NCBI RefSeq assembly: GCF_006345805.1
Contig: NC_042998.1
Location: forward strand, 15,376,001 to 15,440,000
DNA length: 64,000 nucleotides
Direction: 5' to 3'
Source of the DNA: Octopus sinensis
Lineage: Eukaryota
Positions 9,221 through 62,022 of the stretch are shown here, piece after piece (positions within the stretch are counted from its first letter, which is position 1; the number at the start of each line of letters is the position of its first letter). The notes beneath the pieces were generated by a model. That model saw only the letters and a list, made by a program, of their open reading frames with translations, made no database searches and was not told the origin of the DNA. A program made the position numbers and the translations under genes.

Positions 9221-9676
9221 AATTGATAATATCAGGGTAATAAATATTTAAGAGACTTTTACTACCAGTGGCCTAGCGTATAGAAAAATTAGTCAATAGA
9301 CTATATATTATTCATATAAAATACAGGGTACCTTTAAACATATAAGAGGTGCCCATCATAGGATTCCCTTACGCTAGAAGGAACAGCTAAAGTCAAAACC
9401 ACTAATTAGGAATTAAATTTCGAAGGAAAGGAAACATGAAAATAAATACCATCTATTTCCCGGACCATGGTTTGAGACTTTTTTAGCAAATAAAATATTT
9501 TGCTAGGCGAAGTCTTCGTCAACAGGTTATATTCTTTGCTAATAAAAAGTCTGAAACCATGGTCCAGGATTTATCCCTAATTAGTGTTTTGGAATTTAGC
9601 TGTTCCTTCTAGCGTAAGGGAGTCCTATGATCCTATGATGAACACCTCTTATGTGTTTAAATATACACTGTATTTT
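9221..9676 (-). mobile_element. Non-coding PLE pseudo-LTR/retrozyme-like insert with fold-back inversion
   Basis: Flanked by (TA)n. 9535-9676 is the reverse complement of parts of 9315-9490. Contains a decayed HHR and is homologous to 44141-44456. Confidence 0.8.
9459..9526 (-). ncRNA. Decayed type I hammerhead ribozyme (U3.G8; GAAA mutated to CAAA)
   Basis: CCTG-TTGACGA-AGACTT...AAGTCT-CAAA-CCATGG-TC-CGGG. The inverted half copy at 9547-9568 keeps AAGTCT-GAAA-CCATGG-TC-CAGG. Confidence 0.7.
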
Positions 9677-9779
9677 ATATATATATATATAGGGAGAGTT
9701 TACGAAAAATACAAAAGACGAAGACAGGTGGTGTACAAAACAAACAGCTGCATTAGTATAACGCTCAGGAATAGAAAAA

Positions 9780-9821
9780 GTCCTTTTCGTTTCGAGCCTA
9801 CGCTCTTCTACAGAAAGGGAC
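9780..9821 (-). ncRNA. Minimal hammerhead-like motif (A6U variant, decayed)
   Basis: GTCCCTTT-CTGTAGA-A-GAGC-GTAG-GCTC-GAAA-CG-AAAAGGAC within a (TA)n-flanked insert at 9691-9878. Confidence 0.5.
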
Positions 9822-11159
9822 ACAGAAAAAACAAGGAGAGAAAAAAATGTGTGTAGTGGCTAACGATCCATCATGGCGTATATATATATATATATATATA
9901 TATATATATATATGTCGTAATGTACGTATGTGTGTGTATCCTCCATCAATGCTTGACAACCGGTGTCGGTGTGTTTACGTGGTTCAGCAAAGGAAGCTGA
10001 TATAATATGAACAAGTTTTTATATAAAAAACCTGGGGTCGATTTATCCGACTACAAACCATTTCATGCAGTGCTCCAAAATGTCCGCAGTCAAGTGACTG
10101 AAAGAAGGAAAAGAAAAAAGAAAAGATATGAAATATAGATAAGAAAGTTTTGTTTAAATGTGTTGATTGCATTTTGCTGCATAAATTCGATGTGATTTGT
10201 TTATGAATATTATTTAATGAATATTCTTTTCTGCTCTAGGCACAAGGCCAGAAATTTTTGGGGCGAATTCCAGTCGATTAGATCGCCCAATAATTTCAGG
10301 CTTTGTATATAGAGTAGAAAAAAATATATATTGCTTTCGAATTTTAGCACATGATCAGCAAGTGTAGGACATGAGGTAAGTCGATTACATTGACCCCAGT
10401 GCTCAACTGATTCTTAGTTTGTGACTATCATCGATTGCTCGGTATTTGTAGAGGAAAGAGCGCAACAACACGAAAACTACCAGTGACAGCTTACATGTCT
10501 TAGGTGTGTGTTCACAACCATATTGTCTATAACGAGATAGACAGTGTGCAGCGCATTGCCTTCCCATATCCGCCTGTGCACGAAAATATTAAGTACGATT
10601 GCACATAACTATAGAATTCTTTATTCACCATAAATGTTTTACATAGAGGGGACATTACAATTCATTGGGGAAGCAAAACACCAAAAAAGAAAAAATCACA
10701 TAAGCGTATGATAAAGATGAAAGGGTCGAAATGAGTAATGAAAGCTATATACAATATGCTTCCCCATTCTGCAGTCCCTCGTTGTAAATATTGCTTACCA
10801 TCCAGAATTAAGATTGACGAACATGTTACGGTCTTGTTTTATCTTGGACGCCAACATAATTTTACAGACTATAACTCTTAAAACATTAAACAATTCACAC
10901 TTTTAGTAACTGAAAGTTCAGCAGTCCGTACTTCAATAATTTCCGGTCTTCAAAAATTTGACGTATCCTGCATTTTCATTTATAGGAATATAATTATCTC
11001 CTTAAAAAAGCAACAATAGATGGATATATAATGAAGTTCAAGGTATATATAATGACTATGAACATATACACAAAGACTAGAAGAGATCTGAATTTTTTCG
11101 CATCACTATCTGTTTATAGTGGTATTTCTATTATTCCGTGCTCAGCTTATATATTACTT

Positions 11160-11875
11160 TTATTCTTTTATTCTTCTCTTTTACTTGCTTCACTCATTTG
11201 ACTGCAGCCATGCTGGAGCACACCATTATAAGGTTTTACGCGAAGAAATCGACCCACCCCCACTCCAGGGCATTGCTTGTACGCCTAATACTTATTCTAT
11301 CGGCCTTTGTTTGACGAAAACACCAAAATGGATTCTCAAGCGATGATAGGGGGAAAAAACGGACACAAAGACACACACACATACATAAATGATACATACG
11401 CATACATAAACACACACAAACACGCATACACACATGCATATATATATATATATATATATATATATATATATATATGAAGGGCATCTTTCAGTTTTTGCCT
11501 ACCAAATCCACTCGCAAGGCATTGGTCGGCCCGAGGCTATATCACAAGACACTTGTCTAAGGGGCCACACAATGAAACTCAACCCGAAACCATGTGGTTG
11601 TGAAGCAAGCTTCTAATTTCTTTACTGCCCAAAAGGGGATAAACATAGAGGGGACAAACAAGGACAGACAAAGGGATTAAGGTGATTAGAGCGACCCCAG
11701 TGCATAACTGGTACTTATTTCATCGACCCCGAAAGCATGAAAGGCAAAGTCTACCTCAGCGGTGTTTGAACTCAGAACGTAACGGCAGACGAAATACCGC
11801 TAAGCCTTTCGTCCTGTGTGCTAACGTTTCTGCCAGCTCGCCGCCTTCTTACTTCACCGACACACCTGTGCCTAT
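11160..11875 (-). mobile_element. Family B SINE with nested Meta-type SINE (11616-11847)
   Basis: Family B tail 11160-11345 and head 11478-11612, resumed at 11848-11875. The Meta-type copy ends ...GCCAGCTCGCCGCCTT. Confidence 0.8.
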
Positions 11876-11903
11876 CTATATCAATATATATATATATATA
11901 TAT

Positions 11904-59290: not shown

Positions 59291-60356
59291 TGCTGGTGCT
59301 GCTGCTGCAGCTGCAACAACTACTACAACCACTACTACTACTACAGCAACAAAGCGAACGTATGTAGATCGTTCACGTCAATAATATCGTTGCAGACATA
59401 ATACGAAGTCATAATACGAAGTAGCCAATTTCATTTAATTTCATTTTTATAGTATCCTATATAAGAATTATTCGCTGTCTACAATTGACTCAATTTACAT
59501 GGACAACTTTTTTTTTAAAGAGTTACAAACTGATGTTACATATAATGTTTTCCCTTTTTAAATTTATCTACTCTTTTAACTCAATATTCAATATCTATGT
59601 TCATTGTGAATGAGAATTAGTTTTATAGCCTTAAAATATCAACTTTAGTTATAGATTATCGTAATGTCTTCTACCCTTCAGCTTCTTTTAATCGCAAAAA
59701 TAGAAAACGAAACAAATAAAAATGACCACAACAAAAAAACAAACAAAAAAAAAAACAAACAAAAAGAAAAGAAAATTGAAAATCAATTATAGAAAATTAA
59801 ACGGTCAAAGTAAGAATGCAATCTAAGAAAAGGCATTTGTAAGATATCGTTGAAGAATCTTAAGGAAGCCATATAGATAACATGATAGTGGATAATACTC
59901 AAAAGTCGAAAACAAATTTTTATTTTCATATACTTACTCTCAATAATAAGAATAGTGTGGAAATAAGAAAGAGGTATTTATTATGTAGAATAACCAATAT
60001 TTGATACTTTTATTTCTATTTATTTAAAATCCGAATGAATGCTAATATCGTTAAAAAGTGTTGAAAATATATAAATTTCAATTCAATATTGAAGTTGTTC
60101 TAATATTTTTAAACTTTTAGATTTATTGATACACAATTACTATTTGATTAGCATCTATTTTAATGCTATGCCACTAATAATGATAATGAAACGAGTTTTT
60201 AATGGAATTATGATAACTGGAAACGAAGCAGAAATATCTACATGACCATTCGAAGTGAAAAACGAAGAAAAGCCCCAGTGTATCCACTGTAGCAACTTCA
60301 AATAACGAGCGAATACATTAGAATTTGTAGCTATTCTATGCATATAAAGATATCAT

Positions 60357-60743
60357 GTGGAAGCACTCCGTCGGTTACGACGACGAGGGTTCCGGTTGAT
60401 CCGAATCAACGGAACAGCCTGCTCGTGAAATTAACGTGTAAGTGGTTGAGCACTCCACAGACACGTGTACCCTTAACGTAGTTCTCGGGGATATTCAGCG
60501 TGACACAGAGAGTGACAAGGCCGGCCCTTTGAAATACAGGTACAACAGAAACAGGAAGTATGAGTGAGAGAAAGTTGTGGTGAAAGTGTACAGCAGGGAT
60601 CACCACCATCCCTGCCGGAGCCTCGTGGAGCTTTTAGGTGTTTTCGCTCAATAAACACTCACAACGCCCGGTCTGGGAATCGAAACCGCGATCCTACGAC
60701 CGCGAGTCCGCTGCCCTAACCACTGGGCCATTGCGCCTCCACC
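60357..60743 (-). mobile_element. tRNA-derived SINE, head 1 + tail A, full length
   Basis: Near-identical to 191-572. 13-bp TSD ATAAAGATATCAT at 60344-60356 and 60744-60756. Confidence 0.93.
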
Positions 60744-60759
60744 ATAAAGATATCATATA

Positions 60760-61975
60760 CACTGAACCGCTAAAAAAAAAAAAAACGCGAGATGTGTGTG
60801 AATGTGAAATATGTTTTAATTTCATTATGTCAGAGATAAATTCTGATAAATCTGATAGAGTCAATTTCTTGGATGCACGTATATGTGTCATTGTTATGTG
60901 TTCTGGTAGTGCGCGTATCCACCACATCGAGATTGAAGGTCGTGACATGTTCAATACTGTGTATGCCTTCCATGGGTGTTCAAAAAGGCCATACATCGTC
61001 GGTACACGGAGTGCATGAGGTAGTTCACAAAAGCCATTGGCATCTGTGCCCACACTCTGAGAAAAGCTACCTCCAGTTCCACACGAGTTGTCAGCCTTGG
61101 GAGCACCTGATTCAGAAATCTCTGTATTTCATCCCACAGATGTGCAATTGGCTTCAAATCCGAGCTGAAATCCGGTCACGGCTCTCAGTAGGACATCCAT
61201 GGTTACCCTGACCATGAGGCATGGAATCCGTGGTGATACTGGTCGTGTGTGTGAGGGGGAGAGAATTGTTCCGCTGGAACACGTGACTATGATGACGCGC
61301 GAAGAAAGGCACGATGTGAGGTCATGGGATCTGGTCAACGTAGCACTGCGCTGTGATGCCATTCCCTCTTCCTGCACTAATATTTTGGAACACATACATC
61401 CCAGTTCTCTGATTAAGGCCTAGAGCTCTCTAAAGTACGATGCTTGGGCCACCCCACATGTCTCTCTTCATGACAAATGCGTCTCTGTAGCGTTCACCCA
61501 TCCTACGCTATCCGAGGTGAAAACACAGTATCAGCTCTCGTCAGGGAATACTATCAACTTCCATTGTTGATGCCACCAATATCGGTGCTGTGTAGCCTAC
61601 TGCAGTCGTGCTTGACAGTGGTGGGCGGTGAGGACAGGCCCTCGAGCAGGACGACGGCAGCACAGTTTTTTGGCGGCCAGTCGACGTTGTACCGTGTCGT
61701 CGCTGATGGGTCGCTGTCCACAACCAATGGTCTCACGAGCTTTCGCGCTGGCCGGTCTGAAGCGAACACGGAGGTGTTACATGTGGATGAAATGGTCCGG
61801 CCTGGGCGTGGTCACCTGGGGTCGCCCTCTGCAGGCACGGTCGGCAGTGCTGTTGGTGTTGTATTTCTGTTGCAGACGACTGATGGTGTTGTCATGGACA
61901 GTGTAAACTTTCGCAACCACCAGCTGTCCTGCTTTCAATCTTCCAACAGCTATCTTAGCTATCATGTCAGTGCAT
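60760..61975 (-). mobile_element. Tc1-family transposon, decayed transposase, one terminus visible
   Basis: TA-CACTGAACCGC(A)nCGC end. Minus frames: IAVGRLKAG...TISRLQQKYNTNSTADRACRGRPQVTT and PIAHLWDEIQR...SVYRRCMAFLNTHGRHTQY*. Confidence 0.88.
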
Positions 61976-61984
61976 TGGCACGCT

Positions 61985-62022
61985 CGGCTGAGGATGAGCC
62001 AAATAGCTCGAAACTGGTCCAG
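61985..62022 (+). ncRNA. Minimal hammerhead motif with weak stem I
   Basis: CGG-CTGAGGA-T-GAGC-CAAATA-GCTC-GAAA-CTGG-T-C-CAG in a segment (61975-62200) that ends at a TA-rich repeat. Confidence 0.65.

What the first reader, a model, noticed from the sequence alone, without database searches (positions are those of the whole stretch)
9221..62022. Very high density of hammerhead ribozymes from many distinct families
By eye there are about 16 complete and 2 half type I HHR motifs in 64 kb, from roughly a dozen different sequence contexts. Stem III is nearly always a short palindrome (CCATGG, CGTACG, CAATTG, CATATG, CCGG, AATATT). Established: PLE pseudo-LTRs and non-LTR retrozymes carry such minimal HHRs, thought to cleave as dimers. 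If this density is representative, the genome holds a very large, likely under-annotated ribozyme repertoire.
Basis: partly seen in the sequence, partly recalled or inferred. Interest (0 to 1): 0.85.

Follow-up and report, generated by a model that had tools for sequence, protein, structure and literature searches.

The report
Transposon hammerheads with swapped core pair
This 64-kb stretch holds about 17 hammerhead-ribozyme motifs, several sitting at the ends of Penelope-like retrotransposons and the rest likely spread by the same elements, and whole families replace the textbook C3-G8 core pair with U-A, A-U or G-C, so standard searches likely undercount these predicted self-cleaving RNAs.

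Summary
The motifs are real. A type I descriptor finds 7 intact and 5 one-change hammerheads, against 0 and 0.5 in shuffles. By hand there are 17 complete motifs and 3 halves from 14 insertions. The density is not representative: 1 Mb sampled genome-wide gives 19 intact and 43 total, so the window is 4-6 times richer. That still extrapolates to roughly 50,000 intact motifs, a coral-like density. Three window families lie 3' of Penelope-like (RT + GIY-YIG, Neptune/Nematis-type) coding sequence; others are non-coding tandem or inverted units at (TA)n, the non-LTR retrozyme pattern. All of that is known biology.

The new point is the core 3-8 pair, which takes all four Watson-Crick forms at family level. 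In a compact form (short stem II, CCGG stem III) the genome holds 3,260 U3-A8 and 1,527 A3-U8 matches (controls 376 and 155), G3-C8 families, and no C3-G8 excess (91 vs 111). Stem I covaries with it. I found natural U3-A8 in print, G3-C8 only as an engineered mutant and A3-U8 not at all, but could not read a key 2017 paper. Cleavage is untested. Verdict: new variant of a known kind.

The parts
9221..9690 (.). Inverted composite insertion between (TA)n tracts: damaged HHR at 9522- (U3.G8, G12 changed to C; CCATGG) and 3' half HHR at 9553+
   Evidence: relatives in sampled tiles
9772..9820 (-). Minimal HHR-like motif of an abundant short repeat; A6 is U in the family, U16.1 lost in this copy
   Evidence: (30 blast hits in 1.75 Mb of loci)
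16899..16968 (-). Intact C3-G8 type I HHR, stem III CACGGTG, in the nested inverted element 16713-17952
17577..17646 (+). Inverted second copy of the same HHR with one A missing from GAAA
24657..24711 (-). HHR of a ~200-bp non-coding G3-C8 family (AATATT stem III); this copy is A3.C8
   Evidence: 21 of 25 loci G3-C8; 0 of 25 with PLE ORF
27125..27170 (-). Intact compact U3-A8 HHR (1-bp stem II, CCGG) in the 3' terminal region of a PLE remnant
   Evidence: 29 of 30 loci U3-A8
27406..28263 (-). Decayed PLE thumb, linker and GIY-YIG coding remnant upstream of the 27160 HHR
28649..28876 (+). Decayed PLE linker and endonuclease remnant upstream of the 29312 HHR
   Evidence: 54% aa identity, E 1e-17
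29303..29345 (+). Intact compact G3-C8 HHR (1-bp stem II, CCGG) in the 3' terminal region of a PLE remnant
   Evidence: 27 of 30 loci G3-C8
31635..31683 (-). Minimal C3-G8 HHR; stem III reads TG where CG is expected
36618..36662 (-). Compact A3-U8 HHR, solo 3' end of a PLE family; one change in CCGG
   Evidence: 28 of 30 loci A3-U8; 24 of 30 with PLE ORF
40188..42612 (-). Tandem array of a ~565-bp non-coding unit with four C3-G8 HHRs (40525, 41089, 41658, 42223; CGTACG), a 5' inverted fragment and (TA)n at both ends; non-LTR retrozyme pattern
56660..56712 (.). Two 3' half HHRs back to back in an inverted repeat (CATATG and TATATG)
   Evidence: a complete relative lies in L278
56946..57031 (-). 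C3-G8 HHR with long stem II (CAATTG), one base missing from stem I; fragment of a 535-bp tandem unit
   Evidence: six copies in L191
57238..57282 (+). Compact U3-A8 HHR, stem III GCGT (GCGC in other genomic matches)
57474..57587 (-). Intact C3-G8 HHR with long stem II insert (CAATTG)
61970..62045 (+). Canonical type I HHR (loop II CAAATA, bulged stem I, 4-bp stem III), antisense to the apparent start of a decayed Tc1-like transposase

Best explanation
These are type I hammerhead motifs; three window families lie at the 3' ends of Penelope-like elements (PLEs) and the non-coding ones were likely mobilised by the same PLE proteins, and intact copies are predicted to cut their own transcripts when two motifs pair their palindromic stem IIIs. 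Shown: the motifs, the PLE linkage, (TA)n ends, tandem and inverted layouts, and covariation of stem I and of the 3-8 pair. Inferred: a tandem transcript folds as a dimer and cleaves after the NUH triplet; the 565-nt unit would be released as a monomer or circle; PLE endonuclease and RT reinsert it at (TA)n, giving 5'-truncated, inverted or multimeric copies. Most genomic copies then decay neutrally, so the high count reflects many PLE waves and a local pile-up in TA-rich DNA. In one PLE lineage the compact ribozyme kept the fold while its 3-8 pair moved among U-A, A-U and G-C, which implies selection for pairing rather than for base identity.
For: Excess over shuffles. A young U3-A8 family has an 811-aa open frame with RT (Pfam RVT_1, E 2e-7), a CX4CxxC linker and a weak C-terminal GIY-YIG hit, and its HHR lies 156 nt after the stop. 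PLE ORF in 27/30, 26/30 and 24/30 loci. (TA)5+ lies within 500 nt 3' of 25/30, 24/31, 24/30, 21/24 and 16/31 motifs, at family-specific distances, vs 21% background. Family states with positions 3 and 8 left free: G-C 27/30, U-A 29/30, A-U 28/30, G-C 21/25. Genome-wide pattern counts. Ten representatives: 93% of cells paired, all 6 stem I pairs and the 3-8 pair change on both sides, covariation score reached by 0 of 500 shuffles. In isolation 8 of 9 stem III segments form no monomer hairpin but all form a self-duplex. Two adjacent array units pair their stem IIIs with probability 0.90-0.96.
Against: No cleavage data. Only 7 of 17 complete motifs pass the descriptor unchanged. Published PLE minimal HHRs cleave poorly even as dimers (PMC4209133); 8 of 9 tested Xenopus retrozyme dimers showed no cleavage (10.64898/2026.07.22.740005); one PLE HHR needed its protein and was dispensable for insertion in vitro (PMC11167929). 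The four long PLE copies examined carry only a 3' HHR of this family, and many U3-A8 pairs face outward on opposite strands, so one transcript would hold one motif. AATATT and ACGT duplexes are weak (-0.2 and -1.7 kcal/mol). The ten aligned rows were chosen through the motif and are related, so overstates significance. PLE mobilisation of the non-coding families rests on layout alone. Several window motifs had no relative in the loci held.
Confidence: 0.8

Rival explanations
1. The compact swapped-pair motifs are not self-sufficient ribozymes: they cleave only with the PLE protein or in trans, or the fold is kept as a protein-binding or dimerisation signal.
For: Stem II is only 1-3 bp with no evident loop-loop contact. 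G3-C8 only partly rescues activity in engineered ribozymes (PMC8495972, PMC11167929). The anole PLE HHR is protein-assisted (PMC11167929). Outward-facing pairs are common.
Against: The catalytic positions, G10.1-C11.1 and the NUH site are invariant across lineages whose proteins are only about 50-60% identical, which is what catalysis would demand; these rows were, however, found by that pattern.
Confidence: 0.35
2. The swapped pairs are neutral accidents carried along by amplifying elements whose ribozyme was already dead.
For: A family descends from few masters, so a family-wide state is one event. Another abundant repeat here carries a family-level A6-to-U change, so apparently broken cores can amplify.
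Against: All four variant families tallied show a Watson-Crick pair as the family state. At least three double changes map on the PLE tree. 68 of the first 100 rows with position 8 free were A3-U8 (hand count). Stem I covaries at the same time.
Confidence: 0.1
3. The motifs are chance matches in AT-rich repetitive DNA.
For: A loose two-mismatch scan returns many junk hits; one-change hits have a background of about 5 per Mb.
Against: 7 vs 0 intact in window shuffles; 19 per Mb vs 0.75 per Mb in genome tiles; reversed-pattern controls about ninefold lower.
Confidence: 0.01

Closest known systems
Minimal HHRs of metazoan Penelope-like elements (Cervera and De la Pena 2014, PMC4209133)
   Same: Type I, palindromic or absent stem III, in PLE terminal repeats, many families per genome, mostly solo 5'-truncated copies, nearby pairs on opposite strands, natural U3-A8.
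   Different: Their motifs mostly have a long helix II with a 5' bulge; the compact lineage here has 1-3 bp and no bulge. Their 56-motif alignment shows only C or U at position 3; here A3-U8 and G3-C8 are family states.
Non-LTR retrozymes (PMC7229834; bioRxiv 10.64898/2026.07.22.740005)
   Same: Non-coding tandem units of a few hundred bp, one type I HHR per unit, co-occurring with PLEs; coral has over 6,000 motifs in 16 families.
   Different: The units here are 535-565 bp with long stem II inserts rather than canonical loop-loop HHRs, and carry 5' inversions at (TA)n. Circular RNA is not shown.
Short-stem-III HHR variants of PLEs (Lunse, Weinberg, Breaker 2017)
   Same: PLE association, diminished stem III, dimer cleavage (title seen in a reference list and review text in PMC6765202; details recalled).
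   Different: Cannot say: the paper was not available. It may already include the swapped cores.
Engineered 3-8 exchange mutants (C3G/G8C)
   Same: Show that the swapped pair restores part of the activity (PMC8495972, PMC11167929).
   Different: Those are laboratory mutants; here the swaps are natural and multi-copy.

Membership tests
Type I hammerhead ribozyme | Conserved core with a Watson-Crick 3-8 pair, GAAA and NUH site | tested here: met
   7 intact motifs in the window; family states
Type I hammerhead ribozyme | Three-way junction with open stem I, supported by covariation | tested here: met
   rows selected by motif and related
Type I hammerhead ribozyme | Match to an Rfam hammerhead model at gathering score | tested here: not met
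   0 hits; best 21.3 vs 52 bits for HH9
Type I hammerhead ribozyme | Self-cleavage at the predicted site | not testable with these tools
   needs an assay; only contigs were available
Penelope-like element, EN+ | Single ORF with RT and C-terminal GIY-YIG endonuclease | tested here: met
   L259, 811 aa: RVT_1 E 2e-7; GIY-YIG weak, E 0.067, below cut-off; the window remnant matches it at about 80%
Penelope-like element, EN+ | HHR in the terminal repeat 3' of the ORF | tested here: met
   39 loci with the motif 119-321 nt after the ORF match
Penelope-like element, EN+ | Tandem pseudo-LTRs flanking the ORF | tested here: inconclusive
   0 of 4 long copies had a 5' copy of the family HHR; inverted and some same-strand pairs appear
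Neptune/Nematis clades | CX2-5CxxC linker between RT and EN; (TA)n targets | tested here: met
   CX4CxxC in L258-L261; (TA)n enrichment; definition from PMC8557442 passages
Neptune clade | RT phylogeny with reference Neptune elements | not tested
Non-LTR retrozyme | Non-coding tandem units, each with a type I HHR | tested here: met
   array 40188-42612; no PLE ORF in 10 of 10 loci; dispersed arrays
Non-LTR retrozyme | Accumulates as small circular RNA | not testable with these tools
   contigs only

The most novel reading that the evidence does not exclude
A PLE lineage carries thousands of ~40-nt natural hammerheads with a 1-3-bp stem II whose core pair has switched repeatedly among U3-A8, A3-U8 and G3-C8 and never uses C3-G8. 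These would be the first natural A3-U8 and G3-C8 hammerheads, active as dimers, and invisible to CUGANGA-based searches, so animal ribozyme counts would be systematically low. A side lead is a canonical hammerhead built into the 5' end of a Tc1-like DNA transposon.
Probability: 0.45. Interest if true: 0.68.

Novelty: new variant of a known kind. Interest (0 to 1): 0.5.

Why it matters
The 3-8 pair holds nucleotide 8, whose 2'-OH is the proposed general acid. Exchange of the pair has been shown by mutagenesis and, in nature, as U3-A8. Natural multi-copy A3-U8 and G3-C8 families would complete that covariation and give a ready series for testing when each pair works. They also matter for counting: 6 of 19 intact motifs in the genome sample were not C3-G8, and Rfam found none in the window. 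The overall density (roughly 50,000 intact motifs, range 20,000-95,000) is large but is not a new phenomenon.

Tried and rejected
Rfam E-value scan: the 150 listed hits were dominated by miRNA models on microsatellites, none a hammerhead; 194 lower hits were not shown.

Two-mismatch descriptors were too noisy and were replaced. Candidates at 14022-, 15105- and 15581- were rejected (no clean junction, no matching relative). 29853+ and 30740+ were rejected as complete motifs (no stem I). 58318- and 61544- were rejected (5' core only).

Expression: no RNA holder listed; contigs of four runs cover the 565 unit but cannot show ends, strand or circles. This is no evidence either way.

Tc1 link: both the transposase part and the HHR-plus-end part are multi-copy in three runs, but the only listed bridging contig looks like this same locus, so linkage in other copies is open. 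A Pfam test of the Tc1 fragment gave nothing.

The tree has long branches from broken frames and an unsettled bootstrap; 39 of 126 loci passed the filter, so it supports grouping only, not an order of events.

G3-C8 was not counted with the same pattern as the other three pairs.

Earlier scan notes: nothing found.
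Full report
Setting. The window is G000:C2:15376001-15440000 in a 2.72-Gb, microsatellite-rich animal genome. It looks like an octopus-type cephalopod; that is my inference from recalled repeat features and was not tested. The window is 35% GC and packed with simple repeats, short interspersed repeats, a LINE and transposon remnants.

Observation. I wrote a type I descriptor: core with any Watson-Crick 3-8 pair, GAAA, palindromic or short stem III, NUH, stems I and II. With exact cores it gave 6 strict and 7 loose hits against means of 0.07 and 0.13 in 60 local dinucleotide shuffles. 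Allowing one change gave 12 hits, 7 unchanged, against 0.48 and 0 in 25 shuffles. Reading the sequence added five damaged complete motifs and three halves: 17 complete and 3 half motifs from 14 insertions. Rfam finds none at gathering score and scores the single canonical motif 21.3 bits against 52.

Density. One hundred 10-kb tiles at round coordinates on 25 large contigs gave 43 hits, 19 unchanged; six of the 19 are one array. Shuffled tiles gave 21 and 3 per 4 Mb. Bootstrap ranges are 28-61 and 8-35 per Mb. The window (188 and 109 per Mb) is 4.4x and 5.8x richer; P is 0.004 and 0.036 for 70-kb draws, and the window was selected for richness. The 200 kb of flanks are intermediate (16 and 7). 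Net extrapolation is about 50,000 intact motifs (20,000-95,000) and about 100,000 with one change; small contigs were not sampled. Published totals include over 6,000 in a coral and 126,247 in axolotl (PMC7229834, passages). With a recalled coral genome size near 0.45 Gb that is a similar density.

Origin. The 27160 motif follows a decayed GIY-YIG frame. Long relatives carry open frames of 582-850 aa with RT, a CX4CxxC linker and a C-terminal endonuclease; three of the four have a U3-A8 motif about 150 nt after the stop that passes the descriptor. With that protein as query, PLE sequence lies in 27 of 30, 26 of 30 and 24 of 30 loci of the 27160, 29312 and 36654 families, and in 0 of 25 and 0 of 10 loci of the 24703 and 565-bp families (counts include the window's own copy). 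(TA)n tracts follow the motifs at family-specific distances far above the 21% background. The 40188-42612 array has four HHR-bearing ~565-bp units, a 5' inverted fragment and (TA)n at both ends, and closely similar dispersed arrays. The 57023 family forms a 535-bp array elsewhere. These are the layouts described for PLEs and non-LTR retrozymes.

The core pair. Loci fetched by overall similarity, tallied with positions 3 and 8 free, give G3-C8 in 27 of 30 (29312 family), U3-A8 in 29 of 30 (27160), A3-U8 in 28 of 30 (36654; one copy G3-C8) and G3-C8 in 21 of 25 (24703). A genome search with position 3 as A, C or G and position 8 free gave 1,933 matches against 617 for the reversed control; 68 of the first 100 rows were A3-U8 by hand count, revealing a larger A3-U8 family. 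With one compact pattern the counts were U3-A8 3,260 vs 376, A3-U8 1,527 vs 155 and C3-G8 91 vs 111. G3-C8 gave 78 vs 0 with a different, narrower pattern, and the longer G3-C8 family appeared twice in the 1-Mb sample. These patterns do not test stem I; in 20 fetched A3-U8 loci 15 passed the full descriptor, and 9 held PLE coding sequence. Ten representatives align with an invariant core, while all six stem I pairs and the 3-8 pair change on both sides; selection by motif and relatedness inflate this. A rough tree of 39 endonuclease segments gives three supported groups: G-C with the small A-U family, the large A-U family, and U-A. That needs at least three double changes.

Mechanism. Isolated stem III segments cannot form monomer hairpins except at 61988, but form self-duplexes of -6 to -15 kcal/mol; AATATT and ACGT are much weaker. 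Two real adjacent array units pair their stem IIIs with probability 0.90-0.96. I infer dimer-dependent cleavage of tandem transcripts, release of unit-length RNA, and reinsertion by PLE proteins at (TA)n. Against a simple version: the long PLE copies had only a 3' motif, outward-facing inverted pairs are common, and published activity of such motifs is low, absent or protein-assisted.

Literature seen. bioRxiv 10.64898/2026.07.22.740005: parts 1-3 of 5. PMC4209133: parts 1-2 of 4 and supplement parts 1-2 of 3 (56-motif alignment shows only C or U at position 3). Passages only: PMC8557442, PMC3088659 (first natural U3-A8), PMC13282606 (octopus repeat annotation; no mention of ribozymes), PMC6765202, PMC7229834, PMC6155905, PMC8495972, PMC11014351, PMC11167929, PMC3884650, PMC10085705. 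Searches for natural G3-C8 or A3-U8 returned only engineered G3-C8 and natural U3-A8. 'Hammerhead ribozyme' with 'octopus' listed 4 papers, none on octopus hammerheads. The library lacks most subscription papers. Lunse et al. 2017 and the 2007 core-exchange paper (title in a reference list only) were not read, and bioRxiv supplements were not seen; any of these could bear on novelty.

Verdict. The dense, multi-family hammerhead content is real and is known PLE and retrozyme biology, locally enriched (alone about 0.3). The family-level use of all four 3-8 pairs, with a compact lineage that avoids C3-G8, is well supported in sequence, untested for catalysis and possibly unreported. Novelty: new variant of a known kind. 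Interest 0.5.

Noticed in passing
window 60900-62195: A decayed Tc1-like transposase (label from recalled motifs) lies on the minus strand, and the canonical HHR at 61988+ overlaps its apparent start. Both parts are multi-copy in three runs; linkage in other copies is not shown.
   Followed up: partly
families of 29312, 24703, 36654 and L262-L281: G3-C8 families have A, G or U at position 17 and never C; A3-U8 families have A or C. This could avoid a rival 3-17 pair, but young U3-A8 copies have A17.
   Followed up: partly
window 9716-9870; L086, L128, L148, L158, L186, L227: An abundant short repeat whose HHR-like core has A6 replaced by U in many copies.
   Followed up: partly
L133:7088, L168:3684, L179:9951, L261:4752: Another repeat family with an otherwise complete minimal HHR and U4 replaced by C in each copy seen.
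   Followed up: no
window 47364-50378: A fairly intact LINE with AP-type endonuclease and RT domains in two frames.
   Followed up: partly
window 62949-63304: Internal PLE RT remnant, 45-67% identical to the L259 protein, with no HHR nearby.
   Followed up: partly
window 29790-30480 and 30680-31370: Local duplication at 887-bp spacing; each copy holds a lone CTGACGA with a doubtful 3' half and has no relative in the loci held.
   Followed up: partly
window 37100-37700: Long perfect inverted repeat centred near 37400, made of sequence resembling the end of the 16713-17952 element; it produces false miRNA hits.
   Followed up: no
G000:C1, rows: Many U3-A8 motifs occur as outward-facing pairs 2.5-4.4 kb apart, the inverted 5'-truncated layout of PLEs.
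   Followed up: no
L259:7678-9000 (-): A 441-aa frame that looks like the C-terminal part of a non-LTR element with a restriction-like endonuclease (label recalled).
   Followed up: no
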